64,000 bases of DNA from the NCBI RefSeq assembly GCF_044704955.1, contig NC_091982.1, positions 54,312,001 to 54,376,000 on the forward strand, in the 5' to 3' direction. A model generated the notes under the pieces. The model saw nothing but the letters and a program-made list of their open reading frames with translations, was not told the origin of the DNA and did not search any database. This DNA is from Pristiophorus japonicus. Taxonomy: Eukaryota. Both the position numbers and the translations under genes were made by a program. This document shows, one piece after another, positions 27,050-59,715 of the stretch; position 1 is the first letter of the stretch; every line of letters begins with the position of its first letter.

Positions 27050-29415
27050 TGTCATGTATGTAACCTTTATGTAACAACACTGCAATACTGTATATATGTA
27101 AGAAATGCACACCTTGACCACAGGGGGTGAACTTGTGGGAGACACTCCTCACCTGGTCACCCAGGTATTTAAAGGGAGGTCTCACGCAAGGTCATCACTT
27201 CTTTGTCCCGTGAATAAAGGTTCATGTCATGGAGTGATTTTGTCCATAGAATGTGCCTCATGTGGATTTGTGGTATTGTGTAAGGACTTTACATTGGCGA
27301 TGAGAAACAGGAATCAATGCCCCACGAGAATGGCCACCGGCAGCACAGATGAACGGTACTGTGTTGGTGAGGACTGGGACGATTTCATTGAGAGGCTCCA
27401 GCAAAGTTTTGTCATGAAGGACTGGCTGGGAGATGCAGTGGCCGACAAGCGAAGGGCCCATCTGCTGACCAGCTGTGGACCTAAGACTTACGCACTTATG
27501 AAAGACCTGCTAGCATCAGAGAATTCGGCAGACAAAACCTTCGAAGAGCTCAGCAAACCAATCAGTGAGCACCTCAAACCGGCGAGCAGTGTACACATGG
27601 CCCAACACAGATTTTATACACACCAACGTCGGGAAGGATAGAGCATACCGGATTTCGTTGCAGACCTCCGGTGCTTGGCCAGCCTCTGTAAGTTCACAGA
27701 CGCCTGCAGGGGGGAGATGCTAAGGGATTTCTTTATTGAGGGCATCGGTCATGCTGGGATTTTCAGAAAGCTAATTGCGACCAAGGACTTGACCTTGGAA
27801 GCGGCGACGTTGATGGCTCAGACTTTTATGGCAGGGGAGGAGGAAACCAAGATAATATACGTGCGCAATTCTGCCTCCAACGTGGCGATGGATCAGGGAG
27901 TCAATATCATAAATGCGAGCCCCGCAGGCAGGCAAGGGCAGTTCAAGACATCCCAGGCAGCAATAGACCCAAGAGTAAGTCTCCAACAGAAACAATGGCA
28001 GGCTGAACAGACATTTACGCCCCCCCCCAATGGACAATGCGGCCCGGGATGGGGTGCTCAAGAGTAGTCAATGGGACAATCAATGAAGAATGCCTTGCAA
28101 CAGCTCTTTTGTTCACAACAATGGGAATCTCAGTTCATGCTGGAGGTGTGGGGGCAGACATGCTGCCAGGACTTGCAGGTTTCAACAGTTCGTCTGCAGA
28201 AATTGTAACCTCAGTGGCCATTTAGCCAGAATGTGCAGAAAGCCTGTAACCAGGCTAATATATGAGATGGATGAACCAGATGAGGGGTCTGCGAGGCAGG
28301 ATGGACGCTGAAGTTCAGCGGGTTCATGTGGCAAACATTCACAGCTCATTTACCAAAACGCCACCTATGATGATGAAAGTCCTATTAAACAGCATGGAGC
28401 TGGACACGGGGGCCAGCCAGTCACTCATGAGTGTTCAACAATTCGAAAAGCTGTGGCCACTCAAAGCCAGCAGACCCAAACTAGAACGCATTGAGACGCA
28501 ATTACGGACGTACACCAAAGAAATCATTCCAGTGCTAGGCAGTGCAATGTTGACGGTCACACACAATGGATCGGTGAACCGGCTGCCGCTCTGGATTGTC
28601 CCGGGCAATGGTCCCGCACTGTTGGAGAGGAGCTGGTTAGCTGAGATGAACTGGAAATGAGGGGATGTGCATGCCATGTCAATCTGTGGAGCGAAGTTCA
28701 TGCTCACAGGTCCTACAGCAATTTGAGTCACTATTTCAACCTGGCGTTGGGACGTTCAAAGGTACCAAAGTAGTGATACGCATCACCCCGGACGCCAGAC
28801 CAGTGCACCACAAAGCCAGAGCTGTGCCGTATGTGATGCAGGAGAAAATTGAGAGAGTTGGACCGGTTGCTGAGAGAGGGCATCAACTCGCCCATTGAAT
28901 TCAGCGACTGGGCGAGCCCCATCGTTCCCGTCCTAAAAGCGGATGGCTCGGTCAGGATCTGTGGCGACTACAAGGCCACTATCAACCGGGTGTCCCTACA
29001 AGACCAATACCCACTCCCGAGAGCAGAGGACCTTTTTGCCACGCTGGCAGGCAGCAAGCTGTTCACCAAGTTAGAGCTCACGTCAGTCTACATGACCCAA
29101 GAACTGGCCGACGAATCTAAACTATTGACCACCATCACCACGCACAAGGGGCTGTTTGTCTACAAATGGTGTCCATTTGGCATTCGATCAGCAGCCGCGA
29201 TTTTTCAAAGAAACATGGCAAGCTTGCTCAAATCCATTCCTGGAACAATCGTATTTCAGGACGACATCCTCATCGCCGGTCGTGACACCGAGGAACACCA
29301 CCACAACCTGGAGTAGGTGCTACGCTGACTGGACCGGGTAGGCCTGCGACTCAAGAAGTCTAAGTGTGTGTTTTTGGCTCCCGAGGTCGAGTTCCTGGGC
29401 AGGAGGGTTGCTGCA
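27050..29415 (+). mobile_element. 3'-truncated Mag-like Gypsy element (LTR-gag-PR-RT), degraded
   Basis: LTR 27050-27293, PBS TGGCGA at 27295, gag from 27330, CCHC knuckles, protease MELDTGA, RT WASPIVPVLK and FQDD; ends in the RT thumb. Confidence 0.9.
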
Positions 29416-39601: not shown

Positions 39602-42600
39602 TGTTATGTATGGAGAAAGAGTCAGACTGAACACTGTGAGCTCAAAGTAATGTGTGACCATAATCTTTTATTGCAGGTCTCCAGAGGGCCTCTCCAACCT
39701 GTGAGGCCTCCTTAAATACCTGTGTTCCCAAGGGATTATGGGATCCCTTGGGACTCCAGGGGATGAGCCCTCTGGTGGCTGTACAGAGGAAATAAAAGTT
39801 TACATATGTAACAAAACCCCCGCCCCCCCGCAAATCAATAGTGTAACTATTTACAATGTGAGTCGATCTGGGGCCCTTCTTGCCCTGGTTGATCATCTCA
39901 GTATGAAAGCTGGTGTTGTTGAATCATTTGTTGGGCCCTTGCTGGGCTGCTGTTCAGCTGGCCTTGCTGGGCTCCCTGGTGTGTTGGGTCCTGCAGGGCT
40001 GTTGTGGATGATGGGTTCTGCTTCGTGGTCAACCGTGGTGCCGGTTGCCACTGGTGTGTATTTTGGGGGATCAAAAAATGTAGGATCCAAGGTGGGTTGC
40101 TCAGGATAGTCCTTGAATCTGAGTTTGATTTGGTCCAAGTGTTTCCAGTGAATGAGTCCATTTGAAAGTTTGACCCGAAACACCCTGCTCCCCTCTTTGG
40201 CCACGACAGTGCCGGGAAGCCACATGGGACCTTGTCCATAATTCAATACAAATACAGGATCATTGATTTCAGTTTCGCGTGACACATTTGCGCTATCATG
40301 GTATGTACTTTGTTGAAACCGCCTGCTCTCTACCTGTTCATGTCGACCAGGGTGAACGAACGAGAGCCTTGTCTTAAATGCTCTTTTCATGAGCAGTTCC
40401 CACGTGGGCAAGTGGGGTCTCGTGCGGTAGCTAAGCAGGACTTGGGATAGACGAGTCTGCAGTGAGCCTTCAGTTACCCTCTTCAAGCCTTGCTTGATGG
40501 TTTGCACTGCTCTCTCTGCCTGACCATTGGACGCTGGTTTAAACGGGGCAGATGTGACATGATTGATCCCGTTACGGGTCATGAATTCTTTGAACTCAGC
40601 ACTGGTAAAACATGGCCCATTGTCGCTCACCAGGACATTGGGTAGGCCGTGTGTGGCAAAGATGGTCAGCAGGCTTTCAGTAGTGGCAGCGGACATGCTA
40701 GCCGACATTATCTCACATTCAATCCACTTGGAATATGCGTCTAGAACCACAAGAAACAGGTTACCCAAGAACGGGCCTGCATAGTCGACGTGTACCCTAG
40801 ACCACGGTTTGGAGGGCCAAGACCATAAACTTAGCACCGCCTCTCTGGGTACTAGCATGAGATGCATTGTCATATGGCATCGGGTGTGTATTGCAACAAG
40901 CTAATGATTTTGGGAAACTAACTTTCTCAATCATGCTGTAGGCTCTCTCAGCCTTAAACAGACTCCTGGATGCAGAAGCAACCGGTTGCAGTTTCCCAAA
41001 ATCATTAGCTTGTTGCAATACACACACGACACCAGATGACGATGCATCACATGCTAGTACCAAATGCTTACATGGATCATACAACACAAGCAATTTGTTT
41101 GAGCATAACAATTTTCTCGCTTTTACAAAGGCATTTTCTTGGTTTTTGCCCCAAACCCATCCGACCCCTTTTCGTAATAAGACATGCAGTGGATCTAACA
41201 TTGTGCTGAGACCAGGTAAGAAGTTACCAAAGTAGTTCAGGAATCCCAGAAACGACCGCAGCTCCGTCACGTTCTCTGGCTTCGGTGCATTCTCGATTGC
41301 CTCCGTCTTCGCGTTGGTGGGTCTGATGCCATCCGCTGCAATCCTCCTTCCCAGAAACTCCACTTCAGGCACCAGGAAAACGCACTTCAAGCGTTTTAAC
41401 CTGAGCCTTTCGCAGTTGAGTCGACTAAGAACCATCTCCAGGTTCTGCAGATACTCGACTGTGTTCCGACTGTGACCAAGATGTCGTCCTGAAAGACCAC
41501 GATGTATGGGACCGACTTCAGTAAGCTTTCCATGTTTCTCTGGAATATCGCCGCCGCTGATCGAATTCCAAACAGGCATCTGCTATAAATAAAAAGACCT
41601 TTGTGCATGTTGATGCAAGTGAGGCTCTTCGATGATTCCTCCAGTTCCTGAGTTATGTAGGCTTAAGTCAGATCCAGCTTTGTGAATGTCTTTCCTCCCA
41701 CCAGCATTGCAAAGAGGTTGTTGGCCTTTGGTAGTGGGTATTGGTCCTGCAGGGAGAAACAATTAATAGTTACTTTGTAATCGCCACAGATTCTGATGGT
41801 GCCGTCTCCCTTGAGGACAGGAACGATCGGGCTGGCCCACTCATTGAACTCGATCGGTGAAATGATGCCCACTTGTTGCAGCCAGTCTAGCTCGATCTCT
41901 ACCCTTTCTCTCATCATGTACGTTACTATTCTCGCCTTGTGATGGATGGGTTACGCCCCTGGAATTAGGTGGATCTTCACTTTTCCCGATGCCTGGTTCG
42001 AACAGCGAAGGGAACTTGTTTAAGACCTGGGCACACGAAGTGTCGTCAGCGGGCGATAGCACTCGGACATCGTCCCAGTTCCAGCGTATCTTTCCCAGCC
42101 AGCTCCTGCCGAGCAGCGTGGGACCATCGCCCGGTACCACCCAGAGTGATAGCTTGTGTGCTGCTCCATCGTAGGAGACTTTTACAGTAGCACTGCCGAT
42201 TACGGGAATCAGGTCTTTTGTGTAAGTTCTTAGTTCCGTATGAATTGGGGTTAAGACTGACCTTGAGGCCTTGTTGCACCACAATCTTTCGATAGTCTTT
42301 TTGCCCATGATGGACTGGCTCATGCCCGTGTCCAGTTCTCTTGACACCGGGAGTCCATTTAGTTCAACATTCAGCATTATTGGCGGACAATTCGTGGTGA
42401 ATGTGTGCAACCCATGTACCTCTGCCTCCTCGGTCTGAGGCTCTGGTTCGTCGTGATCCGCCATGGATCTGTCCTCCTCTGCAACATGGTGGTTTGCAAG
42501 TTGATAGGATTAGCAGCTCGCCTGCACATACGTTGGAGGTGTCCCATTGTTCTACAGCCCTTGCAAACATACACTTTGAATCGGCATGAATGGAAACAAT

Positions 42601-44576: not shown

Positions 44577-44742
44577 TGTAATAACACAAGAGTCCTGTTA
44601 TTATCAACATTTTTCGGGTGTGTACCCGATCACTTTTATTCCGCCTCGGATAAGTATCAAATCCGACTTCCTCTATTGCCCGCATGATATCCGACAGTGG
44701 CGCCCTCTGGTGTCTGGTGACCCCAAGCATAAGTATATTACT
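44577..44742 (-). mobile_element. 166-bp solo LTR (25271 family)
   Basis: Sequence match; TSD GACAC/GAGAC with one mismatch inside the CR1 IAITETW codons. Confidence 0.85.
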
Positions 44743-45555
44743 GAGACATGGTTGCAAGTTGACCAGGGTTGGGAACTATATATTCCAGGGTACTTTTTGT
44801 ATCAAAAAGACAGGCAGACTGGAACTGGAGTGGGATAGCCCTGATAATAAGGATGATGTATGGACAGTAGTGGGAAAGGATCTTGGCTCAGAAGATCAGA
44901 AAATAGAATCAGTATGGGTGTGGATAAGAAATAACAAGGGGCAGAAAACAATGTTGGGAATAGTTTATAAGCCCCCTAACCATTATACCACTGGACAGAG
45001 TATTAATCAAGAAATAATAGGAGCTTGCAACAAAGGTAATACAATAATTGTGGGGGACTTTAAACTGCATATAGATTGGGCAAATCAAATTGGCAAGGGT
45101 AATCTGGAGGACGAGTTCATGGAATGCATTCGGGACAGTTTCCGAGAACAATACGTCAAGGAACCAACTAGGGAACAGGCAATTTTAGATCTTGTATTGT
45201 GTAATGAGACAGGGTTAATTAGTAATCTTATACCACAGGATCCTCTCAGGAAGAGTGATCATAATATGATAGAATTTCACACTGAGTTTGAAATTGACAT
45301 TCTTAAATCTGACACTAGAGTCTTAAACTTAAACAGTGATAAAGATGTGTGTATGAGGGATGAGTTGTATGAGGGACAATGACATGTGTATGAGAGACGA
45401 GTTGGCTAAGGTAGATTGGGAACTTAGATTAAAAGGTATGACAGTAGATTTACACATGGTAATCATTTAAAGAAATATTCCAAAATTCACAACAAATATA
45501 CATTTCATTGAGAAATTAAAAACTCCATGGGAAAAGTGATCCATCCATGGCTAAC

Positions 45556-46270
45556 TGTTGAAGAGCATTACCATAGAGCAAAGGTACCTGTGGCATAATG
45601 TTAGAATTAAATATGTGTGTAATGTTAGAATTAAATATGTGTGTATAAAATGGTGGCAGGAGAGGTATGAAGATGGCTGCCAGTGATTCAGCAAAGCACC
45701 AAGGGAATGCAGCTAGCAGAAGGGACCACATTCCTAGATACTGATAATTGCCGTTTCTCACACAACAATGCACAGAAAAAACGAGCTCAGCAGATGTCTC
45801 TAAGCAGCAGGCTTCCAGGCCCCAGACAAGATGTCCCAGTTGAATGATAGAACAATAGTACTCCTGTAACAGGATTAAGATAAAGCAACTACCCAAAGAC
45901 AGCACTCAAGGACAGTAAGATAAGTGAAGGTGGGGGGCCTGGACAATGTCACAAGACCATGAGTAACCCTTAGCAACACATGAGGAATCACGCAGCCACC
46001 TAATGTTTAGAGACCAATTCTATTGGTCTAATTGAATCTATATGTAATCTATAATCAATATGATTGGATAGTGTCCAGCCGAAATGGGCTGATGTAACTA
46101 TAGTGAACTGTTGTAAAACATATAAAAATCCATGAAATCCTTTGTTCAGTGGAGAGAGGTGCCTGGATGAACCAGTGGCTTCATCTCCCCGCCGGCGTAA
46201 TAAACTGTTTTGGTGTATGGAACCGACCCAGAGTGACGAGTGATTCTTGGAGGGAACATTCGCGCTAACA
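45556..46270 (+). promoter_or_regulatory. ERV 5' LTR
   Basis: TGTT...AACA ends, 24-bp tandem repeat at 45596-45645, TATAAAA near 46121, AATAAA near 46199. Confidence 0.9.
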
Positions 46271-46272
46271 AA

Positions 46273-46290
46273 TGGCATAGTCGGCAGGAT
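46273..46290 (+). promoter_or_regulatory. Primer-binding site, tRNA-Ser
   Basis: TGGCATAGTCGGCAGGAT, one mismatch to the complement of the tRNA-Ser 3' end; candidate splice donor G|GTGAGT at 46328. Confidence 0.85.
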
Positions 46291-46832
46291 ATTGTGGAGG
46301 CCGTTGGGACATCCCTGGAGAATCCGGGTGAGTATAAGTCCGAGTTAAAAAAAACATAGCGGGGTGCTGGAGGTGAACGCACAGGTTGATCGACACGGAT
46401 GGATGGTCCAGTATCTCACACATCTAGCCTGAGCCTGAATTAAGAGGACTTAATCCCACATGATGGCCAGGATCAAGTCGGTGTAAAGAACCCCCCTGAG
46501 ACCATAGGATCGTGAGACCGAGCAACACCTCCCAGACCCAATAAGGGAATTGGCAGTAGATCCCGGGGGGTAAGGGACCAGGTGGTGTCCAGAGGCCGAC
46601 GCATTATCCAATCTGTGAGAAGGGTCGGACCAACAGGCAAAACTGTGGTAGGTAGTCGTTAAGGAGGCGTAGGGCACTGCGGGAATTGCTTAAATGCGTT
46701 TTAAGAATTGTATAAGTTTGTGTAATAGCAGACTTGTGACCTGACAGTAGCGAGAGACGGTCTACAACAAGTCACGCTGGGTAAAAGCGGACCTCTGAGA
46801 GTAAGATTCCTAACGAGCTAATCATACCCAAT

Positions 46833-48264
46833 ATGGCCAATGTAACAACAGAACTCAAGTGGGGGCCCGAAGGGTCCCTTACTTGCCACCTGGAGGAGAA
46901 ACAGACAAAGATGATAAATTGAATGATTGCATCAGGTTGGAAACCCCACGACTCGCCGGAAGAACAGCGAGAGTGGTGGAAACAGGAAAGGAAAGATAAA
47001 GACAAAAAAGCCTTGGTCCTGATCCTCTGGGCCCATGTAATACTGACAGGAAAAGTAAACCAATATATAAAAAACAAAAGGGAGCAGGTGAAGGTCATGT
47101 CCGGGTGAACTGTCTTGCCAACCCGAACAAAGGGCGCAGACGCACCACCTAGTGAGGAGGACATTGATTGGGGACTCCCAGACGAGGGGATGAATGGGTA
47201 TGATTGGGGCGAAGGAGATGCCCTGCCCCCTCCATAGGCCCTGACGTACCCAGCCAAAGCAGCCCCGATAAAACTAGAATATATACCAGGGATCCCAGTG
47301 CGACGCCCCGGGAAAGGAGGACCGGGACGAGCCGCTCGATCCCCGCAAGTAAAAATGACATACATCTCCCAATCTCCCGGGGATACAATGCAGCTGCTAG
47401 ACAAATTACTCGTCCTGCTACCCCGAAGTAGCAATGCAGTTTTCTGGCAAAATATTAAGGAAATGCGCATTTTCCACCAACTACACAGCCGGGACATAGC
47501 GGGATCAGTTAGAACCAAGATGCCCGAAAACTACTGGGCATGCTACCCGCAGCTTATAGGGACGGGATTTGGTGTGAGGACCTGTCCACTGACCAGCAAC
47601 AGTAGGAAACAGACATGGCAGCATTTAAAATAGAAGTTACAACAGCTTTAGGGCATGTCCCCGTGAATTGGAATTCGATAGTAGGAGTAACCCAAAAGGA
47701 AGGCGAAGGAGCACAGGAATATGGAACTAGGAAATTTGAAGCCTTCTTAGCACATAGTGGAGTACCAAATGTAGATAGGCAGAACCCGGCTTTCATACAG
47801 CTGTATAAAGACGGGTTAAGCCCTGCACACCAAATCATACTGAAAACAGGGCGAGTAGCATTTAATAATTCTGACGATCTGGAAAACTGGGCCACTGCGG
47901 TGGATAATCAGCAGAAATCTAATGTTGCAGCCAACACTACAGAAACCTATGTAGCAGCTGCCACAAAGGCACCGGAGGTGTGTTTTAATTGCAAAAAAAC
48001 GGGACACCTCTTGCGGAGTGCCGTGTAGAATATAAAGCCCCAAAGTGGGAGACTCACAAAAAGTGTCAGAACTGTAGTAAAATGGGACATAAGATGAAGG
48101 ATTGTTGGGCAGAGGGAGGCGGACGGGAGGGACAGGGACCCTACCCGGTACGAAGAAAGAAACAGGTATCTGATGAGAAAACGGTAGACGCAAGTAAACT
48201 GGGGAGCCAGCAGCTGTTGGACATTATACGGCAGCTAACCCGGCAACAGACACGGCCCCAATGA
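46833..48264 (+). pseudogene. gag: ERV gag with stops and frameshifts
   Basis: MANVTTELKW start, capsid-like VNWNSIVGVTQKEGE...FLAHSG, two CCHC knuckles (CFNCKKTGH, CQNCSKMGHKMKDC). Confidence 0.8.
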
Positions 48265-50990
48265 CTCGCATCAGCCCCCGGCCAGGGGCTCGACCCTCGT
48301 ATGTGGGTCAACGCATCGTTAGGGAGCCGGCGGTGCGACATGTTAATTGATACGGGTGCATCGGTGTCCCTGACCAACCTTGACCTGCCCACAACCCGAC
48401 GATCAATTATTGTACAGGGAGTGGGAGGAAACCAAACCGTTGCATATCAGAGTGAATACCAATTACTGGAAGTAGGTGGCATTATGTTACCAGTACAGTT
48501 CTGGGTATGTCCAAACACGGAGGGTACCATATTACGGATAGATTTGTTGAATGAGTTAGGCACGATAGTAGACGCCCGAAATAGACAAGTAATTTGGATG
48601 GCGAGAAAGGGACATAAAGACAAAATTACCGGAAAATGGGTCCCAGTGAAGAATGTAGCCACCGTAGGTAGTGCGGCTAAGTCAACCAGGGACTGGACTA
48701 AAGATGGGATGTTAGGATCAATATGTCAAACTCTGCCTGATATCTGGGCGAAAGACAAACAGGACTGCGGACTTATTAATATATTACCAGAAAAGATCAA
48801 AGGGCCAACTCACCCTCCCCACAAGCAGTACCCGATTAAACCTGAAGCCATATGGGCCACTGAGATAATCATAAGAGACCTGGTAGAACAAGGTATATTA
48901 AGACAAACAGTATCGGTCACAAACTCCCCAATATGGCCGGTGAAAAAGCCCGATGATAGCTACCGATTAACCATAGACTATACTGCCCTGAATAAAGTGA
49001 CCCCCAAAGTACACCCAATCGTAGCCAGTCCGGCCACGATCTTTAACAGCCTGAGTCCGGAACACAAGGTCTTTACCGTCCTGGACATTGCTAATGGATT
49101 CTGGTCGATCCCATTGGATCTCGAGTCCCAGGAAAAGTTCGCTTTCACTTCCCAGGGCAAGCAGTATACGTGGACTCGACTCCCTCAAGGGTTCCACAAC
49201 AGCCCAAACATTTTCCATCGAGTCATGAGCGGGGCCCTGAAAGAATGCGATCTAACACCGTACAACAGTACGATCCTACAAACGTGGATGACATTCTCAT
49301 AGCCTCGTCAAATGACCAAGAGCATCTGGGCGTCCTAACAGCGGTATTGAGAATGTTAGAGAAGGCAGGATTTAAGATAAATCCGAGGAAAGCACAAATT
49401 GGACAGACTAGAGTACGATACTTGGGACACGACATTAGTCAAGGAACCAAGACTCTCCTGACAGATCGGAAAATGGCGATTGCCGACATGCCTCGACCCA
49501 CCACGATGCGGGGCGTACGGCGTGTGATGGGGCTGTTCAACTACTGTAGGAGTTTCATTTCCCAGTTCGCAACAATCGCAGAACCTATTCAGCATCTAGT
49601 CAAGGGTGGAAAACCCGGAAAGATCAGGTAGGTGGGGAGTGGAACAGGGAGAAGCCTATGAACAGTTAAAAGCTGGGCTGCTGTTAGCCCCTGCTCTAAA
49701 GTTACCAGACATTTCCAAATCATTCCACGCGTATTACAACCTGGAAGGGGGCTTTTACAACGCTGTAGTGACCCAAGAAAAGGGGGGGTGCAATGAGACC
49801 TGTAGCGTATTACTCCACACATGAGTCCCCGGTAGTAAAGGGACTCCATCGATGCGTAGCGGCCCTCGATTTTGCAGCCTGGGCTGCAAGAATATGTGAG
49901 CCTGTGACAATGTCCGGACAGTTGGTTATACACACTAAGCATACTATACTGGAATTGCTGAACACTGGAAGGTTAAAAACGGTGTCAGATGCCCGACGGA
50001 CTATGTGGGAAGCGGTATTGGTACCCAAAGATCAGCCAGTACAAATAAGGGATGTAGGGTTTAACCCAGCCGAAGGAATGGTGACTGAAGGCGAGCCCCA
50101 CCAATGTCAGATAGAGATAGATCAGGGAGTGGAGGGAGAAATAGCCGATGAACCCCTGACCAACCCCGACCTGACCCTTTACGTCGACGGATCCCGTCGG
50201 TACATCAACGGGCAGTTTCGGACTGGATGGGCCGTGGTAGACCAAGATGGGACCACACTCCTGCTGGGAGGGTTGGAAGGGACAGTATCGGCTCAGGTAG
50301 CCGAACTGGTGGCGCTAACAGAAGCCCTGAAACTAGCAGAGGGAAAGCGCGTGAACATCTTCACGGATAGTCGATACGCGTTTGGGGTGGTTCACGACTA
50401 TATGACAGCTTGGAATAGACGGGGATATATAACATCGGGAGGGAGACATATTAAACACGAGAATGTAGTCCGAGAACTAGTAAAAGCCGTCAAGTATCCT
50501 CTCACAGCGGCTGTAATAAAAATTAAGGCTCACCAGAAGATCGAAAGCAAAGAGCAACGGGGAAACATGTTAGCAGACCAAGCAGCCCGAAGCGCTGCGG
50601 AAGAGGCTGAGCCTCAGACTATCCCAGTAGCCACGATAGGGCCAGAGGAACTAAATATTCAGAAGATACAGGAAAAAAGGGGGCGGTAAAGGGGGGAGAC
50701 GCTGTATGGAGAAAGGGAAGACAGGTAGTGGCCCCATCATCTATCCAGGCCGAGCTACTTAAATTACACCATGAACCGGACCATGCCGGGAGGGATGGGA
50801 CATTAAGTCGTTTAACGAAGGACTGGTGGTGGGCGGGAATAGGACGAGATATAGCGAAGCATTGCCAGCGATGCCTAATATGCGGGCAACATAACCCCGG
50901 AAAACCTATAAAGGCTAAATTGGGACATCAGCCGCGTCCTAAAGGACCGTGGGAAAACTTACAGATTGATTTCACCGAACTGTTGCCCAA
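48265..50990 (+). pseudogene. pol: ERV pol: PR-RT-tether-RNase H-integrase N-terminus, frameshifted
   Basis: LIDTGA, NSPIWPVKK, LPQGFHNSP, frameshifted (Y)VDD, RPVAYYS, YVDGS / SAQVAEL / TDSRY, HHCC and QIDFT. Confidence 0.92.
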
Positions 50991-51737
50991 CATAAGAACA
51001 TAAGAACATAATAATTAGGAACAGGAGTAGGCCATCTAGCCCCTCGAGCCTGCTCCGCCATTCAACAAGATCATGGCTGATCTGGCCGTGGACTCAGCTT
51101 CACTTACCTGCCCGCTCCCTGTAGCCCTTAATTCCCTTATTGGTTAAAAATCTATCTATCTGTGATTTGAATACATTCAATGAGCTAGCCTCAGCTGCTT
51201 CCTTGGGCAGAGAATTCCACAAATTCACAACCTTCTGGAAGAAGAAATTCCTTCTCAACTCTGTTTTAAATTGGCTCCCCCGTATTTTGAGGCTGTGCCC
51301 CCTAGTTCTAGTCTCCCCGACCATTGGAAACAACCTCTCTGCCTCTATCTTGTCTATCCCTTTCATTATTTTAAATGTTTCTATAAGATCACCCCTCATC
51401 CTTCTGAACTCCAACGAGTAAAGACCCAGTCTACTCAATCTATCATCATAAGGTAACCCCTCATCTCCAGAATCAGTCTAGTGAATCGTCTCTGTACCCC
51501 CTGCCAAACCTTAGCCCATTCGCTTAACCTATCTAAATCTCTTTGAAGCCTCTCTGTGTCCTCTACACAACCCGCTTTCCCACTAATCTTTGTGTCATCT
51601 GCAAATTTTGTTACACTACACTCTGTCCCCTCTTCCAGGTCATCTATGTATATTGTAAACAGTTGTGGTCCCAGCACCGATCCCTGTGGCACACCATTAA
51701 CCATCGATTTCCAACCCGAAAAGGACCATTTATCCCG
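50989..51737 (-). mobile_element. CR1 3' part, inverted copy with an internal deletion
   Basis: Tail aacataagaacataagaacataat; [10 protein letters not shown] and KFADD. Confidence 0.9.
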
Positions 51738-51762
51738 AATCACCAAACAATATTTCTTCCCC

Positions 51763-52713
51763 CTGCAGATAACACAAAGATTAGTGGGAAAGCAGGTTGT
51801 GTAGAGGACACAGAGAGGCTGCAAAGAGATTTAGATAGGTTAAGCGAATGGGCTAAGGTTTGGAAGATGGAATACAATGTCGGAAAGTGTGAGGTCATCC
51901 ACCTTGGGAAAATAAACAGTAAAAGGGAATATTATTTGAATGGGGAGAAATTACAACATGCTGCGGTGCAGAGGGACCTGAGGGTCCTTGTGCATGAATC
52001 CCAAAAAGTTAGTTTGCAGGTGCAGCAGGTAATCAGGAAGGCGAATGGAATGTTGGCCTTCATTGCGAGAGGGATGGAGTACCAAAGCAGGGAGGTCCTG
52101 CTGCAACTGTATAGCTGTATAGCATATTGGTGAGGCCGAACCTGGAGTACTGCGTGCAGTTTTGATCACCTTATTTAAGGAAGGATATACTAGCTTTGGA
52201 GAGGGTACAGAGACGATTCACTAGGCTGATTCCGAAGATGAGGGGTTACCTTATGATGATAGATTGAGTAGACTGGGTCTTTACTCGTTGGAGTTCAGAA
52301 GGATGAGGGGTGATCTTATAGAAACATTTAAAATAATGAAAGGGATAGACAAGATAGAGGCAGAGAGGTTGTTTCCAATGGTCGGGGAGACTAGAACTAG
52401 GGGGCACAGCCTCAAAATACGGGGGAGCCAATTTAAAACCGAGTTGAGAAGGAATTTCTTCTCCCAGAGAGTTGTGAATCTGTGGAATTCTCTGCCCAAG
52501 GAAGCAGCTGAGGCTAGCTCATTGAATGTATTCAAATTACAGGTAGATAGATTTTTAACCAATAAGGGAATTAAGGGCTACGGGGAGTGGGCAGGTAAGT
52601 GGAGCTGAGTCCACGGCCAGATCAGCCATGATCTTGTTGAATGGCGGAGCAGGCTCGAGGGGCTAGACGGCCTACTCCTGTTCCTAATTATTATGTTTGT
52701 ATGTTCTTATGTT
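51763..52713 (+). mobile_element. CR1 3' part
   Basis: RT C-terminus and tail ending gttcttatgtt. Confidence 0.9.
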
Positions 52714-55713
52714 GGGCAACGGTTCGGTGAAATCAATCTGTAAGTTTTCCCACGGTCCTTTAGGACGCGGCTGATGTCCCAATTTAGCCTTTATAGGTTT
52801 TCCGGGGTTATGTTGCCCGCATATTAGGCATCGCTGGCAATGCTTCGCTATATCTCGTCCTATTCCCGCCCACCACCAGTCCTTCGTTAAACGACTTAAT
52901 GTCCCATCCCTCCCGGCATGGTCCGGTTCATGGTGTAATTTAAGTAGCTCGGCCTGGATAGATGATGGGGCCACTACCTGTCTTCCCTTTCTCCATACAG
53001 CGTCTCCCCCCTTTACCGCCCCCTTTTTTCCCCACTCGGACTGTTCTTCCAGGCTACTTTCCTCCTGTATCTTCTGAATATTTAGTTCCTCTGGCCCTAT
53101 CGTGGCTACTGGGATAGTCTGAGGCTCAGCCTCTTCCGCAGCGCTTCGGGCTGCTTGGTCTGCTAACATGTTTCCCCGTTGCTCTTTGCTTTCGATCTTC
53201 TGGTGAGCCTTAATTTTTATTACAGCCGCTGTGAGAGGATACTTGACGGCTTTTACTAGTTCTCGGACTATATTCTCGTGTTTAATATGTCTCCCTCCCG
53301 ATGTTATATATCCCCGTCTATTCCAAGCTGTCATATAGTCGTGAACCACCCCAAACGCGTATCGACTATCCGTGAAGATGTTCACGCGCTTTCCCTCTGC
53401 TAGTTTCAGGGCTTCTGTTAGCGCCACCAGTTCGGCTACCTGAGCCGATACTGTCCCTTCCAACCCTCCCAGCAGGAGTGTGGTCCCATCTTGGTCTACC
53501 ACGGCCCATCCAGTCCGAAACTGCCCGTTGATGTACCGACGGGATCCGTCGACGTAAAGGGTCAGGTCGGGGTTAGTCAGGGGTTCATCGGCTATTTCTC
53601 CCTCCACTCCCTGATCTATCTCTATCTGACATTGGTGGGGCTCGCCTTCAGTCACCATTCCTTCGGCTGGGTTAAACCCTACATCCCTTATTATCTGTAC
53701 TGGCTGATCTTTGGGTACCAATACCACTTCCCACATAGTCCGTCAGGCATCTGACACCGTTTTTAACCTTCCAGTGTTCAGCAATTCCAGTATAGTATGC
53801 TTAGTGTGTATAACCAACTGTCCGGACATTGTCACAGGCTCACATATTCTTGCAGCCCAGGCTGCAAAATCGAGGGCCGCTACGCATCGATGGAATCCCT
53901 TTACTACCGGGGACTCATGTGTGGAGTAATACGCTACAGGTCTCATTGCACCCCCCGTTTCTTGGGTCACTACAGCGTTGTAAAAGCCCCCTTCCAGGTT
54001 GTAATACGCGTGGAATGATTTGGAAATGTCTGGTAACTTTAGAGCAGGGGCTAACAGCAGCCCAGCTTTTAACTGTTCATAGGCTTCTCCCTGTTCCACT
54101 CCCCACTCTACCTGATCTTTCCGGGTTTTCCACCCTTGACTAGATGCTGAATAGGTTCTGCGATTGTTGCGAACTGGGAAATGAAACTCCTACAGTAGTT
54201 GAACAGCCCCATCACACGCCGTACGCCCCGCATCGTGGTGGGTCGAGGCATGTCGGCAATCGCCATTTTCCGATCTGTCAGGAGAGTCTTGGTTCCTTGA
54301 CTAATGTCGTGTCCCAAGTATCGTACTCTAGTCTGTCCAATTTGTGCTTTCCTCGGATTTATCTTAAATCCTGCCTTCTCTAACATTCTCAATACCGCTG
54401 TTAGGACGCCCAGATGCTCTTGGTCATTTGACGAGGCTATGAGAATGTCATCCACGTTTGTAGGATCGTACTGTTGTACGGTGTTAGATCGCATTCTTTC
54501 AGGGCCCCGCTCATGACTCGATGGAAAATGTTTGGGCTGTTGTGGAACCCTTGAGGGAGTCGAGTCCACGTATACTGCTTGCCCTGGGAAGTGAAAGCGA
54601 ACTTTTCCTGGGACTCGAGATCCAATGGGATCGACCAGAATCCATTAGCAATGTCCAGGACGGTAAAGACCTTGTGTTCCGGACTCAGGCTGTTAAAGAT
54701 CGTGGCCGGACTGGCTACGATTGGGTGTTCTTTGGGGGTCACTTTATTCAGGGCAGTATAGTCTATGGTTAATCGGTAGCTATCATCGGGCTTTTTCACC
54801 GGCCATATTGGGGAGTTTGTGACCGATACTGTTTGTCTTAATATACCTTGTTCTACCAGGTCTCTTATGATTATCTCAGTGGCCCATATGGCTTCAGGTT
54901 TAATCGGGTACTGCTTGTGGGGAGGGTGAGTTGGCCCTTTGATCTTTTCTGGTAATATATTAATAAGTCCGCAGTCCTGTTTGTCTTTCGCCCAGATATC
55001 AGGCAGAGTTTGACATATTGATCCTAACATCCCATCTTTAGTCCAGTCCCTGGTTGACTTAGCCGCACTACCTACGGTGGCTACATTCTTCACTGGGACC
55101 CATTTTCCGGTAATTTTGTCTTTATGTCCCTTTCTCGCCATCCAAATTACTTGTCTATTTCGGGCGTCTACTATCGTGCCTAACTCATTCAACAAATCTA
55201 TCCGTAATATGGTACCCTCCGTGTTTGGACATACCCAGAACTGTACTGGTAACATAATGCCACCTACTTCCAGTAATTGGTATTCACTCTGATATGCAAC
55301 GGTTTGGTTTCCTCCCACTCCCTGTACAATAATTGATCGTCGGGTTGTGGGCAGGTCAAGGTTGGTCAGGGACACCGATGCACCCGTATCAATTAACATG
55401 TCGCACCGCCGGCTCCCTAACGATGCGTTGACCCACATACGAGGGTCGAGCCCCTGGCCGGGGGCTGATGCGAGTCATTGGGGCCGCGTCTGTTGCCGGG
55501 TTAGCTGCCGTATAATGTCCAACAGCTGCTGGCTCCCCAGTTTACTTGCGTCTATCGTTTTCTCATCAGATACCTGTTTCTTTCTTCGTACCGGGTAGGG
55601 TCCCTGTCCCTCCCGTCCGCCTCCCTCTGCCCAACAATCCTTCATCTTATGTCCCATTTTACTACAGTTCTGACACTTTTTGTGAGTCTCCCACTTTGGG
55701 GCTTTATATTCTA
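52712..55713 (-). pseudogene. pol: Inverted duplicate of the ERV gag end and pol (mirror of 48026-50990)
   Basis: ORFs 54437-55438, 54108-54569 and 52684-53736 are near-identical to the plus-strand copies. Confidence 0.95.
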
Positions 55714-55764
55714 TAGAGATGGCCTACTCCTGTTCCTAATTATTATGTTCTTATTTTCTTATGT
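55714..55764 (+). mobile_element. Third copy of the CR1 tail
   Basis: gatggcctactcctgttcctaattattatgttcttat, followed directly by ERV integrase C-terminal sequence. Confidence 0.8.
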
Positions 55765-55960
55765 CGAGAGCCAAGACCAGGGCACGACCGAACCTCGCCT
55801 GCCACAGGTAGGGGATAAAGTCCTGGTACAAGTCACCACTGAACACACGGGATTTGCCCCAAGATGGAGCCTTATGACATAATCTTAACTAGTGACACAT
55901 GAGCATGTATTGATATGAAAGGGAAGGGCCGGTGGAAGCACTGGTCCCAGTTGAAGAGAT
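55765..55960 (+). pseudogene. ERV integrase C-terminal remnant
   Basis: LPQVGDKVLVQV...FAPRW (GPY/F-type region); catalytic core deleted. Confidence 0.65.
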
Positions 55961-55972
55961 ATAACTAAAACC

Positions 55973-56164
55973 ATGTCGGACCCCGAAATTGTGCCCCTCA
56001 GGGAGACTGCCTGGTACGTGGCTAGATACCAGGAGTGGCAAAATGCATTAAAGAATGGAATGTTTGCAGGCATAATGGTGGCCCTAATATTGGTAGGAGT
56101 ATGGACGGTATTTAGATGGGTTACCGGGCAAGCCCGAGTTCGACCTGCATTAGTCCAGGACTGA
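55973..56164 (+). CDS. 63-aa single-pass membrane protein, putative retroviral accessory ORF
   Basis: aaaaccATG context; hydrophobic GMFAGIMVALILVGVWTVF followed by basic residues; lies between IN and env. Confidence 0.55.
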   Translation: MSDPEIVPLRETAWYVARYQEWQNALKNGMFAGIMVALILVGVWTVFRWVTGQARVRPALVQD

Positions 56165-56339
56165 TGACCATATAGACAAGGACAGGTAGTGATTGAGATG
56201 GTACGGCTATGAAAAGTATGGATAACCTAATCTTCACCTCTAATTTTACAGAACTACTTCGGCGCGAGCAAATCAGTACCTAACACTTGGTGATGACCAG
56301 GCAATCTGTTTGAAGTTTTCAGATAAACCACCCACCAAG

Positions 56340-57364
56340 ATGGGATCGCAGTGGCCACTTTACCTCTGCAGCATGACACTAGGGATCTCGACACTCATAC
56401 AAGCGTCAGATAACTCGGATGGTCTATGAAGGATGCAGCAAACGCAGGAAAGACACACTTACCCGAACTATGGGATCTTGTTTAATTTAACTGACGAGAT
56501 ATGCATCCCAGCAGCCAAAGACTGGAGCAAGGACAGAACTTATTTTAATGCTTGGCTGCAGGTACACTCGAGCAAGGATACAGTATGCGTACACTGCTCC
56601 ACTGATACCAGGGTCAACTGTATCAGAAGAGAGGAGGCTCGGGGATCCGCTAAGTGTACTTTCGGGATAATTTGCGCGCCCACTGTTAAGCCCCAACCGG
56701 CGGGCACGTACAGAAAGGGGGTGGGGGTAGGTGGCTATTATGAGGTGGTAGGAGCAGCCGCTGTATCTTTGTACGTATGTTTTTCACCACCTCCGACATC
56801 GCGTTCCATAGCGACCTTCACCTCGCCCGAAATCTTACCATGCCCCTCAACCACAATGGGACCGCAGAACAGGATTGTATTACTTAACGAAGGTGAACTA
56901 TTATATGATAATGTTAAGCATGAAATTGTGCTGGTTCTGATCAATATCTCAGGTGTACAAATGCCGGAATATTGTACAGAACAGGCAAGGAAGACGTATA
57001 GTGTATTAAGTAAGGTTGTAATGCAGCAGGCTGCTGATGCCGTGGGCGTCAGTAGGTTCCGAGGACAAGGGCAGGTGCATAGGAATAAGATTGAGATACT
57101 GGAGAAAGACACCGACACAGAGCTGCAGGATGAAAGTTGGTGGAGGAGGGTTTGGAACTGGGGCTGAATGTCAACATCCACCTCTGGATTCGAATTATAT
57201 CACATACACTGGTCGGAATACAGTTAGTCCTAGCATTAACATGGGGTGTCATGGCTTGCCGGTCCTGCAGACATTATGTGCAACAACGGAGGTTTAGCAC
57301 CAAAGCTCAGATAAGCAAGGAAGACTGTGTGACAGGCGATTCGAACAATATCAATTTGATCTAA
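56340..57364 (+). pseudogene. env: ERV env, internally deleted
   Basis: Acceptor ctaattttacag at 56251; signal peptide MGSQWPLYLCSMTLGISTLIQA in frame with 56433-57167 across one TGA; Cys-rich region, RNK site, WW..W, then a TM segment after a frameshift. Confidence 0.7.
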
Positions 57365-57506
57365 ACAACTGGGACTCCTGAAATCGCGTGACTGGCTAGC
57401 ACGTTGAAGCAGGGAGTACCAGGTGATACAAAAACATAAATAATATAAAATAAATTAGTGTTGGTTTCAGGGGGCTAGGACTAGCCCTTTTACCGAAAGG
57501 GGGGAT

Positions 57507-58328
57507 TGTTGAAGAGTGTTTCCATAGAGCAAAGGCACCTTTGGCATAATGTTAGAATTAAATATGTGTGTAATGTTAGAATTAAATATGTCTGTATAAA
57601 ATGCTGGCAGGATATGTATGAAGATGGCTGCCAGTGATTCAGCAAAGCACCATGGGAGTGCAGCTAGCAGAAGGGACCACATTCCTAGCTACTGATAATT
57701 GCCGTTTCTCACACAGGAATACACAGAAAAGACGAGCTCAGCAGATGTCTCTAATCAACAGGCTTCCAGGCCCCATAGAAGATGTCCCGGTCAAATGATA
57801 GAACAATGCGATTCCTGTAACAGGAGTAAGATATGGAAACTACCCAAAGAGAGCACCCAAGAACAGTAAGATAAGGGGAGGCCTGGACAATGTCACAAGA
57901 CCATGAGTAACCCTTAGCAACACATGAGGCGATCACGCAGCCACCTAATGTTTAGATACCAATTGTATTGGTTTAATTGAATCTATATGTAATCTATAAT
58001 CAATATGATTGGATAGTGTCCAGCCGAAATGGGCTGATGTAACTGTAGTGAACTGTTGTAAAACATATAAAAATCCATGAAATCCTTTGTTCAGTGGAGA
58101 GAGGTGCCTTGATGAACCAGTGGCTTCATCTCCCCCCAGGCGTAATAAACTGTTTTGGTGTATGGAACCGACCCAGAGTGACGAGTGATTCTTGGAGGGA
58201 ACATACACCAAAATGGTTTATTACGCCGGCGGGGAGATGAAGCCACTGGTTCATCCAGGCACCTCTCTCCGCTGACCAAAAGGATTTCATGGATTTTTAT
58301 ATGTTTTACAACAACATTCGCGCTGACA
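57507..58328 (+). promoter_or_regulatory. ERV 3' LTR with a 112-bp internal inverted duplication
   Basis: Matches the 5' LTR; 58202-58313 mirrors 58054-58163. Confidence 0.9.
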
Positions 58329-58352
58329 CTAATTAAAAAATTTAATAATAAT

Positions 58353-59117
58353 GGGCCTGAAATTCCAATATCCCGGGTCCGTACGAAGTTTCAACGGACC
58401 CGGGAAGGCATCGAAAAAGCCGGTTTTCAGTGCGCAATGCGCATACGCTGAAAACCGGCTTTTCCGATATGTCAAGTTTCTGACTTGACAGATCTCGCGC
58501 ATATCAGGAGCAAGGACACTTGCAGGGCAAGATTTGTGATATTTACGTATATCTTGCCCAGCAAATGTCCTCAAAAATCTTGCGCCTGAAAAAGCAGGCG
58601 TACAGCCTATTTTTACAGGCGCAAGTGTTTAAAAACATACGTAAACATTAAAATTAAATTAAATAAACACATATGAAAACATATTTTATTGTTAAATACC
58701 CTCTCCACTATGGTAAGTTTATTTTAAGGCATAATTTAAAAAAAACATTTTAATGTCGGGAAAATATATTTTTTTATAAGAACTGTAATTTAAATGAATC
58801 TTAAATATGTGGCATATTTTTCTATTTTTTTATTAGTGTTTTTTGTGTTTGGGGGTGTTTCTCATTCATAATAATGGGAACTCCAACTTACGGAGTTACA
58901 ATTATTATGAATGAGAAAATACTGTACCTTGATTGGCTGCCCAGAGCCATGTGACTCCAGCTCCAGCATTCGTACGTCACAACGTGCACACGCTCCCATG
59001 TGTAGGGAGTGAAGGCCTCAGGATCGGAAGTTCGAGCGGGCGCAGCAGGAACAAGTAGGTGCACATCTTTTTTAAGTCGATTGCCTGCGGGAAGAGCTCG
59101 ACCGGGATTTCTAGGCC
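58353..59117. mobile_element. Harbinger-like MITE
   Basis: Termini gggcctgaaatt / gatttctaggcc, flanks aat/att, interrupts the CR1. Confidence 0.6.
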
Positions 59118-59349
59118 ATTGTTAGATTAACAGAAGAGGCTTATAGTGTTGCAAAGAATAGTAGTAAGCCTCAGGATTGGGAGAGCTTTAGAAACCAGCA
59201 AAAGATGACCAAAAAAATGATAAAAAGGGAGAAAATAGAATATGATAGGTTCTCTAGATTGATTCCTGGGATGAGGGGGTTGGCCTATCACGAGAGATTG
59301 ATAGGCCTATACTCTCTGGAGTTTGGAAGAATGAGAGGTGATCTCATTG

Positions 59350-59715
59350 AAAGAAAGAAAAAAAGAAGGAAAAAAGGAAAGAAAGAAAGAAAGAAAGGAA
59401 GAAAGAAAAAAATAAAGACTTGCATTAATATACTGCCTTTCATGACCACCGGACATCTCAAAGCTCTTTAAAGCCAATGAAGTACTTTTGGAATGTAGTC
59501 ACTGTTGTAATATGGGAAACGCGGCAGCCAATTTGCGCCCAGCAACTCCCACAAACAGCAATGTTATAATGACTAGATAAATGTTTTTTGTTATGATGGT
59601 TGACCAGGACACCAGGGATGACTCCCCTGCTCTACCTCGAAATAGTGCCATGGGATCTTTTACGTCCACCTGAGAAAGCAGACGGTATCTAATTTTAATG
59701 TCTCACCCAAAAGAC
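59350..59715 (-). mobile_element. Deu-domain SINE with (GAAA)n tail
   Basis: Reverse of the core and tail. Confidence 0.75.

What the first reader, a model, noticed from the sequence alone, without database searches (positions are those of the whole stretch)
45556..58328. Lokiretrovirus-like provirus in a probable cartilaginous fish genome
Seen: complete LTR-PBS(Ser)-gag-pol-ORF-env-PPT-LTR layout, 5-bp TSD, retroviral-type pol with a tether and a separate RNase H, and an env lacking visible gamma-type ISD/CX6CC motifs but containing GPQNRIVL...LLYDN...V.VLIN and a WW..W...H membrane-proximal segment. Known: lokiretroviruses are a sister lineage of retroviruses whose Env resembles Mononegavirales F proteins. 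As I recall, they were reported from lampreys, bony fishes, amphibians and reptiles. Inference: this is a loki-type element, and a chondrichthyan member may extend the host range. The host assignment rests on repeat content only.
Basis: partly seen in the sequence, partly recalled or inferred. Interest (0 to 1): 0.75.

Follow-up and report, generated by a model that had tools for sequence, protein, structure and literature searches.

The report
Shark retrovirus fossil, F-type envelope
This is a broken, rearranged copy of a multi-copy endogenous retrovirus, likely of a shark, whose copying enzymes group with ordinary fish retroviruses rather than lokiretroviruses but whose envelope protein is predicted to fold like foamy-virus and paramyxovirus fusion proteins, so this envelope type likely reaches further across retroviruses than described.

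Summary
The provirus is real, but it is not complete and not a lokiretrovirus. The LTRs (6.5% apart), Ser-tRNA PBS, gag, pro-RT-tether-RNase H, a small ORF, env and PPT are present. However, the integrase core is missing, CR1 LINE pieces and a 3.5-kb inverted duplicate of pol sit inside, env lacks about 1.1 kb, and the TSD matches at 4 of 5 bases. The RT nests inside retroviruses with shark and fish proteins, apart from the loki clade (AU p=0.039). It has LPQG where 24 of 24 published loki rows have PFG, and its RNase H is MLV-like. Its place beside snakehead retrovirus is unresolved. The host is likely a shark. The scan noted a similar element earlier in another genome (e1-7805280). Verdict: a snakehead-grade retrovirus with a class Ib envelope; the loki host range is not extended.

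The parts
45551..45555 (+). left target-site copy (CTAAC), inside an older CR1-type LINE
   Evidence: (endonuclease ORF 44654-45382)
45556..46270 (+). 5' LTR (715 nt, TG...CA); CCAAT 46014, TATAAA 46121, AATAAA 46199
   Evidence: promoter and poly(A) roles inferred from motif order
46273..46290 (+). primer-binding site for tRNA-Ser (one mismatch in this copy)
46328..46333 (+). candidate splice donor (GTGAGT)
   Evidence: motif only
46833..48264 (+). gag remnant (stops and frameshifts; two CCHC knuckles), ending in a TGA in frame with pro-pol
   Evidence: homologous to the gag part of Heterodontus P0004
48265..50992 (+). pro-pol remnant: protease, RT, tether, RNase H, integrase zinc finger; several frameshifts; cut off at 50992
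50990..51741 (-). CR1-type LINE 3' piece (microsatellite tail at 50990), with an internal gap
51764..52710 (+). CR1-type LINE 3' piece in the opposite orientation
52192..55713 (-). inverted duplicate of 48026-51511 (gag end to integrase zinc finger plus LINE tail); 10 substitutions in 2967 nt of ERV versus 16 in 508 nt of LINE
55717..55764 (+). third LINE tail (48 nt)
55766..55968 (+). integrase C-terminal part; the catalytic core upstream is missing in this copy
55973..56164 (+). small ORF with one hydrophobic segment (63 codons here, about 80 in other copies); candidate accessory membrane protein
   Evidence: no Pfam hit under E=0.05
56226..56251 (+). candidate env splice acceptor (branch point, pyrimidine tract, AG), found in 12 of 13 copies examined
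   Evidence: motif only
56340..57364 (+). env remnant: signal-peptide-like start, Cys-rich N-terminal domain, F2-like core, then a deletion of about 1.1 kb at 57087-57090, membrane-proximal WW..W and TM anchor; stops and frameshifts
57495..57505 (+). polypurine tract
57507..58328 (+). 3' LTR with a 112-nt inverted insertion at 58202-58313
58329..58333 (+). right target-site copy (CTAAT; 4 of 5 match)

Best explanation
This is a dead, rearranged provirus of a multi-copy endogenous retrovirus family, likely of a shark, with a snakehead/epsilon-grade polymerase and an envelope predicted to have the class Ib (foamy and paramyxovirus F) fold; it is not a lokiretrovirus. Shown from sequence: LTRs, a tRNA-Ser primer site, a PPT, 5-bp target duplications, and gag and pro-pol in one frame split by a TGA (5 of 5 copies). 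Fuller copies show a roughly 9.5-kb layout and an Env with an R-x-K-R furin site, long helices, a Cys-rich beta region and one TM anchor. Inferred: the virus primed reverse transcription with tRNA-Ser, made Gag-Pol by reading through the TGA as snakehead, gamma- and epsilonretroviruses do, and made Env from a spliced RNA. Env was cut by furin and fused membranes by the F-type refolding of HRA and HRB, and the extra N-terminal Cys-rich domain would bind the receptor. After integration this copy was likely hit by CR1 LINE insertions in integrase, template switching between two inverted LINE copies (giving the inverted pol duplicate), loss of the integrase core and an env deletion.
For: RT tree, 52 rows and 324 columns: the three loki rows form a basal clade (100/99). 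The three query rows group with shark-derived proteins (100/97), then fish proteins (99/94), inside nodes that exclude loki (96/89, 95/85, 95/89). Forcing the shark clade together with loki is rejected (p-AU 0.0385). LPQG in the query versus PFG in 24 of 24 loki rows of the paper's Dataset S2. RT against the PDB: MLV-type 190 bits, foamy 138, Ty3 98. RNase H is 23-27% identical to loki, 40% to SnRV and 37-48% to the epsilon/gamma-type rows; its top PDB hits are MLV/XMRV. Env: the profile of 39 relatives hits foamy Env 8OZH (E=7.2e-4) and 8RM1 (0.0084) with cysteines aligned. The AlphaFold model (mean pLDDT 62) gives 238 PDB matches at E<=0.001, and the 39 rows shown are all paramyxo/pneumovirus F (best 1.7e-8). 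VIA-align gives Z 8.3 (rmsd 16.1, 294 aligned) to hPIV3 F and Z 7.0 (rmsd 15.7, 240 aligned) to foamy Env. Atlas neighbours are Baculo_F and Fusion_gly clusters. No ISD in 63 of 63 Env-search proteins. Host: all 9 near Env relatives are named from sharks, and a host fbxo15 exon is 84% identical to Heterodontus.
Against: The AU rejection is modest (0.0385) and rests on three loki rows labelled by motif, not by name. The integrase is closer to loki (40-42%) than to SnRV (32%) and its tree is unresolved. Grouping with SnRV is neither shown nor rejected (open fork; p-AU 0.134), and no named walleye virus was in the tree. The Env model is middling: pTM 0.41, N-terminal 134 residues mostly under pLDDT 50, TM-scores about 0.18, rmsd 14-25. 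In the unbiased wide search unrelated helical proteins tie with F proteins (best Z 7.9). Pfam PF00523, which loki Env hits, is not hit here. The Atlas recognition value was low (1608). Read-through, splicing and fusion were not tested. No non-shark comparator was run for the host exon.
Confidence: 0.8

Rival explanations
1. It is a lokiretrovirus, the first from a cartilaginous fish.
For: F-type Env. The Env core starts with a GP..G(I/L)-L motif that also opens the published Loki-Xtr Env (compared by eye). Dual RNase H. Integrase 40-42% identical to loki. The loki paper found none in 6 chondrichthyan genomes, so it would be new.
Against: RT tree and AU test. LPQG versus PFG. RNase H not of the loki/foamy group. 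Env has about 140 extra N-terminal residues before the core, which Loki-Xtr Env lacks. The best genome hits to loki RT queries reached only 35-39% (64 of 229,765 candidates scored), and the 9 loci in which the motif could be read carried LPQG or LPYG.
Confidence: 0.05
2. It is a recombinant: a snakehead/epsilon-grade gag-pol that picked up its env (and perhaps integrase) from a loki or foamy-like virus in a fish host, so the F-type Env is a local acquisition and not an ancestral trait.
For: Env swapping is common in anamniote ERVs (10.1101/2021.11.23.469661). The elephant-shark CmiERV lineage I has the same Ser PBS and an SnRV-clustering Pol but a gamma-type env with ISD and CX6CC (read by eye), so this Pol grade carries both Env types. 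The nearest solved sequence is foamy Env.
Against: The Env family is old and diverse (18-75% identity across sharks, frogs and coelacanth). None of the 20 distant hits looked up is named as a loki or foamy Env. Predicted walleye epsilonretrovirus Envs also match the model, which fits inheritance. This rival is compatible with the best explanation and differs only on the origin of the Env.
Confidence: 0.35
3. It is a foamy-like endogenous virus of a cartilaginous fish.
For: The Env profile hits foamy Env; foamy-like elements from cartilaginous fish exist (title seen in a reference list; CmiFLERV label).
Against: RT is far from the foamy clade. Gag has zinc knuckles. pro-pol follows gag in frame after a stop. 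The RNase H is MLV-like. There is no room for 3' accessory genes, since env ends about 130 nt before the PPT.
Confidence: 0.03
4. The inverted duplication and the LINE junctions are an assembly artefact (fold-back read) and the true locus is simpler.
For: Long, near-perfect palindromes are a known long-read artefact (own knowledge). No public contig spans the junction.
Against: The arms differ by 26 substitutions and several clean indels, and the LINE part diverges ten times more than the ERV part (3.1% versus 0.34%, Fisher p=4e-8). That fits two distinct LINE copies and not sequencing error.
Confidence: 0.12

Closest known systems
Snakehead retrovirus and SnRV-related ERVs (clade Huo; PMC6001957, passages read; PMC4977317, passages read)
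   Same: RT motifs and 40% RT identity (P0023 matches the paper's SnRV row by eye); in-frame gag stop before pro-pol (PMC2717909, passages read); zinc-knuckle Gag; non-foamy RNase H
   Different: Sister grouping not resolved; integrase only 32% alike; the Arg primer and upstream env leader of SnRV are recalled and differ from the Ser PBS and internal signal peptide here; SnRV Env could not be compared
CmiERV lineage I of elephant shark (Han 2015, PMC4422223; main text part 1 of 2 and supplement 1 part 1 read)
   Same: Cartilaginous-fish host, SnRV-clustering Pol, identical tRNA-Ser PBS, about 9.5 kb, LTR ending in CTAACA
   Different: Its env carries an ISD and CX6CC, so it is gamma-type (read by eye); LTR and gag show no evident likeness by eye; a different family
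Lokiretroviruses (Wang and Han 2021, PMC7947760; main text parts 1-3 of 4, supplement parts 8, 67, 68 of 82 read)
   Same: gag-pol-env between LTRs, tether plus RNase H, furin-cut Env related to paramyxo/pneumovirus F
   Different: RT outside the loki clade, LPQG not PFG, RNase H not loki/foamy-type, no PF00523 hit, extra N-terminal Env domain, no smc gene seen
Foamy virus Env, class Ib fusion proteins (PMC11468914; section 9 and passages read)
   Same: Best sequence-level match of the TM subunit among solved structures; same predicted F-type core
   Different: The foamy receptor-binding domain is inserted between the F2- and F1-like parts and the leader is a long membrane-anchored peptide; here the variable domain lies in front of the F2-like core after a short signal-like peptide, on a non-foamy gag-pol

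Membership tests
Lokiretrovirus | RT in the loki clade, sister to all other retroviruses | tested here: not met
   (p-AU 0.0385); three loki rows, labelled by the CPFG motif
Lokiretrovirus | PFG at the RT motif where other retroviruses have LPQG (24 of 24 published rows; an empirical marker, not a formal definition) | tested here: not met
   versus 1, 34
Lokiretrovirus | RNase H groups with foamy viruses | tested here: not met
   (23-27% to loki; loki and foamy join apart from the query, SH-aLRT 81-93, long branches flagged)
Lokiretrovirus | Integrase closest to CGIN1 | tested here: inconclusive
   40-42% to loki, tree unresolved, no CGIN1 reference held
Lokiretrovirus | Env related to Mononegavirales F | tested here: met
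   predicted fold only; PF00523 not hit by sequence; the trait is shared with foamy viruses
Lokiretrovirus | Tether plus second RNase H | tested here: met
   common to all retroviruses
Spumaretrovirinae (foamy) | RT in the foamy clade | tested here: not met
   (three mammalian foamy rows; no named fish foamy-like row)
Spumaretrovirinae (foamy) | Gag without zinc knuckles; accessory genes between env and 3' LTR | tested here: not met
   the features are from PMC2717909 passages and own knowledge
Spumaretrovirinae (foamy) | Class Ib Env | tested here: met
   (weak sequence hit, medium-confidence model)
SnRV-like ERVs (clade Huo) | RT clusters with snakehead retrovirus | tested here: inconclusive
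   open fork; p-AU 0.134
SnRV-like ERVs (clade Huo) | gag and pro-pol in one frame, separated by a stop | tested here: met
   TGA in 5 of 5 copies that cover the junction; shared with gamma and epsilon; read-through itself untested
SnRV-like ERVs (clade Huo) | Env homologous to SnRV Env | not tested
   no SnRV Env was returned or 79
Gamma-type Env | ISD and CX6CC in the TM subunit | tested here: not met
   0 of 4 long Envs; ISD 0 of 63 and one CX6CC-like match in a TM anchor among 63; motif patterns recalled
Gamma/epsilonretrovirus (class I ERV) | RT inside the class I clade | tested here: inconclusive
   the query lies outside an 18-row clade (100/100) that holds mammalian gamma-type and fish rows, but no named walleye virus was in the tree

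The most novel reading that the evidence does not exclude
The F-type (class Ib) envelope is the ancestral retroviral envelope. It is kept in lokiretroviruses, foamy viruses, this shark-frog-coelacanth lineage and probably the walleye epsilonretroviruses, with a swappable N-terminal receptor module (Cys-rich here, Ig-like in some relatives). Gamma- and beta-type Envs would be later replacements, which would decide among the four origin scenarios of Wang and Han.
Probability: 0.35. Interest if true: 0.8.

Novelty: new variant of a known kind. Interest (0 to 1): 0.5.

Why it matters
The loki paper left open whether the common ancestor of retroviruses had an F-like envelope. Foamy Env was later shown to have that fold. 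A third, non-loki, non-foamy lineage with a predicted F-type Env sits on a polymerase close to the class I retroviruses and is spread over sharks, frogs and coelacanth. It fills the gap in that comparison and makes the question testable with Env and Pol trees and structures. It also shows that envelope screens seeded with gamma- or beta-type queries miss a whole Env class in anamniotes. The locus itself is a dead copy and does not extend the loki host range.

Tried and rejected
Pfam found no fusion family in any Env piece or relative except a weak Baculo_F hit (E=0.0011) in P0203. Single-sequence folding failed (pLDDT 33). The 10-sequence profile hit nothing in the PDB. The wide VIA-align search did not separate F proteins from helical noise. 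Sequencing runs: no RNA holder listed; contigs of three DNA runs of one sample were too short to span the rearrangement junction, which is no evidence either way. Looking for true loki elements in G000 gave none among the scored candidates (150 of 85,989; 64 of 229,765), a floor and not proof of absence. The small ORF shows no match to the frog Env N-terminus. Folding the gag stop context gave different structures in two copies, so no read-through element is claimed. Literature: 10 full-text searches found no description of an F-type Env in shark SnRV-grade ERVs; four of them returned nothing. The SnRV genome paper, the cartilaginous-fish foamy paper and Herniou 1998 were not held. Repbase and Dfam could not be searched, so the family may already be catalogued there. 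bioRxiv supplements were not seen and most of the loki supplement (79 of 82 parts) was not read.
Full report
Observation. The element runs from 45556 to 58328. The LTRs are 45556-46270 and 57507-58328, 93% alike, with a K2P distance of 0.0645 over 696 sites; two other copies give 0.055 and 0.047. With the two rates used by Han 2015 (2.2e-9 and 2.2e-10 per site per year) this spans roughly 15 to 150 million years, so the age is poorly fixed. The PBS at 46273-46290 is complementary to the 3' end of host tRNA-Ser(AGA): 686 exact matches to a 28-nt pattern, and 3 of 3 fetched loci were called tRNA-Ser by ARAGORN. The target duplication is 4 of 5 here, perfect in L001 and L011 and offset by one base in L012. 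Pfam finds zinc knuckles, protease, RT, a tether-type RNase H, a second RNase H and the integrase zinc finger.

The copy is not complete. At 50992 integrase is cut by a CR1-type LINE tail. After a short hub a second LINE piece runs the other way, followed by an inverted duplicate of 48026-51511 at 52192-55713, a third 48-nt LINE tail, and the integrase C-terminus from 55766. About 557 bp of integrase core present in L001 are missing. The arms differ by 10 substitutions in 2967 nt of ERV but 16 in 508 nt of LINE (p=4e-8). This suggests two different LINE copies and template switching between them (inferred). Public contigs did not span the junction, so an assembly artefact is not formally excluded. 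In env, 39 of the 40 other matches stop at or within 15 nt of query position 841; the 11 fetched copies that cover both sides show that about 1.1 kb is deleted at 57087-57090 in the window.

The family. LTR and env DNA searches gave 3109 and 3758 first-look candidates, of which 40 each were scored, at 84-96% identity. Twelve copies were fetched, and none holds an unbroken env frame. L001 and L011 show the roughly 9.5-kb layout. gag ends in TGA in frame with pro-pol in 5 of 5 copies that cover the junction, the arrangement described for SnRV, gamma- and epsilonretroviruses (PMC2717909, passages). A small ORF with one hydrophobic stretch follows pol, then a candidate splice acceptor and an env start with a signal-like peptide.

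Polymerase. Against solved structures the RT of L001 scores 190 bits to MLV-type RT, 138 to foamy and 98 to Ty3. A search of longer proteins gave 151 hits, 120 listed. The nearest named ones are from Heterodontus (55%) and a cluster holding a Mustelus protein (63%). P0023 matches the SnRV row of the loki paper's Dataset S2 by eye. P0109, P0110 and P0117 carry the CPFG motif and were labelled loki; all 24 loki rows of that dataset have PFG, the query has LPQG. I built a tree from 47 of the 120 listed proteins (near-duplicates dropped), three query rows and two gypsy pieces from G000 as outgroup. Loki is basal (100/99), as in the paper. The query groups with the shark-derived rows (100/97), then with five fish or unnamed rows (99/94), in an open fork with SnRV, an eel-cluster protein and a 22-row clade that holds the gamma/epsilon-type rows. 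Forcing the shark clade with loki is rejected (p-AU 0.0385); forcing the wider clade with SnRV is not (0.134). RNase H is 23-27% identical to loki, 21-27% to foamy and 40% to SnRV, and its PDB hits are led by MLV/XMRV. Against my reading, the integrase is 40-42% identical to loki and 32% to SnRV, and its tree is unresolved.

Envelope. One copy (L008) has a frameshift-free 683-codon stretch, read with X at three stops. Its 9 near relatives are all named from sharks, including an intact 714-residue Mustelus ORF. A profile search of 1.84 billion proteins gave 56 hits at E<=0.001. Of 20 distant hits looked up, 17 carry names: 13 sharks (Chiloscyllium, Scyliorhinus, Pristiophorus, Heterodontus, Heptranchias), 3 frogs (Pelodytes, Mantella, Xenopus) and coelacanth. 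The family shares a furin site, a weakly hydrophobic post-cleavage peptide, long helices, a Cys-rich beta region, a WW..W segment and one TM anchor. It lacks an ISD and CX6CC. The 39-row profile hits foamy Env at E=7.2e-4 and 0.0084. The model built on it has mean pLDDT 62 and pTM 0.41. Foldseek returns paramyxo- and pneumovirus F proteins in all rows shown (best 1.7e-8, TM-scores about 0.18). VIA-align gives Z 8.3 to hPIV3 F and 7.0 to foamy Env over model residues 141-535, with rmsd about 16; in the wide search unrelated helical chains tie with them. Among predicted viral structures the named leaders are walleye epidermal hyperplasia virus Env (4.8e-13), several invertebrate-virus and one fish-filovirus glycoprotein, walleye dermal sarcoma virus Env (1.8e-9) and baculovirus F. 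The N-terminal 134 residues are not modelled reliably.

Host. The genome is 5.9 Gb. The element's nearest named relatives are from sharks, and a host fbxo15 exon is 84% identical over 87 residues to Heterodontus (no teleost comparator). A shark is likely.

Comparison with what is known. Wang and Han screened 6 chondrichthyan genomes and found no loki, and this element does not change that. SnRV-related ERVs are known from elephant shark (Han 2015) and clade Huo infects all major vertebrate lineages (PMC6001957). The elephant-shark lineage I element has the same Ser PBS but, read by eye, a gamma-type env, so it is another family. Foamy Env shares the F core (PMC11468914). A 2026 paper still names only loki-type lineages as vertebrate carriers of F-like Env (PMC13524379, passages). 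The anamniote Env survey searched only with gamma- and beta-type queries (parts 1-2 of 6 read). PMC10435555, PMC13709493 and PMC12690878 were seen as passages only.

Verdict. It works like an ordinary retrovirus with a foamy/paramyxovirus-type fusion protein. It is not a lokiretrovirus and not a foamy virus; membership of the SnRV group is plausible but unresolved. The locus is dead. The interest lies in the Env class and what it says about the ancestral retroviral envelope.

Noticed in passing
BFVD matches to model md6cbc4113b2f: Predicted Envs of walleye epidermal hyperplasia virus 1 and walleye dermal sarcoma virus, and the glycoprotein of Wenling thamnaconus filovirus, rank above paramyxovirus F; these may also be class Ib fusogens.
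   Followed up: no
P0207 cluster: Sixteen near-identical Env-like proteins in Mantella aurantiaca, 12 of the 15 listed being 677 residues long, point to a recently active frog ERV with this Env type, while a 2025 survey reports only gamma-type envelopes in amphibian retroviruses.
   Followed up: no
P0183, P0209: Some relatives have an Ig-like domain in place of the Cys-rich N-terminal domain (UniRef name; V-set E=0.045), suggesting a swappable receptor-binding module.
   Followed up: partly
PMC4422223 supplement, CmiERV scaffold 2: The SnRV-clustering elephant-shark ERV has a gamma-type env and the same Ser PBS, so this Pol grade carries two Env classes.
   Followed up: partly
G000, many contigs: 79 further matches at 28-47% to the Env part of P0203 indicate other, more distant F-type env families in this genome.
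   Followed up: no
G000:C23 18.57-22.56 Mb: Long tandem arrays holding a tRNA-Ser 3' sequence with a period of about 1.95 kb.
   Followed up: no
window 55973-56164: Small single-membrane-segment ORF directly after the pol stop, kept in other copies; candidate accessory protein of unknown kind.
   Followed up: partly
window 44654-45555 and 59115-59471; 58410-58468, 58858-58918: The provirus sits inside an older CR1-type LINE, which seems to resume near 59115 after a palindrome-rich insertion just right of the 3' LTR.
   Followed up: no
window 28858-29415 and 41001-41833; L007, L009: Other RT fragments in the window, and gypsy-like elements inserted in two copies of the family.
   Followed up: no
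P0188, P0203, P0218: Env fragments are joined to host genes in public protein models (Niban-1-like, fbxo15, and an unnamed cadherin-domain protein); probably annotation chimeras, possibly exonised ERV pieces.
   Followed up: no
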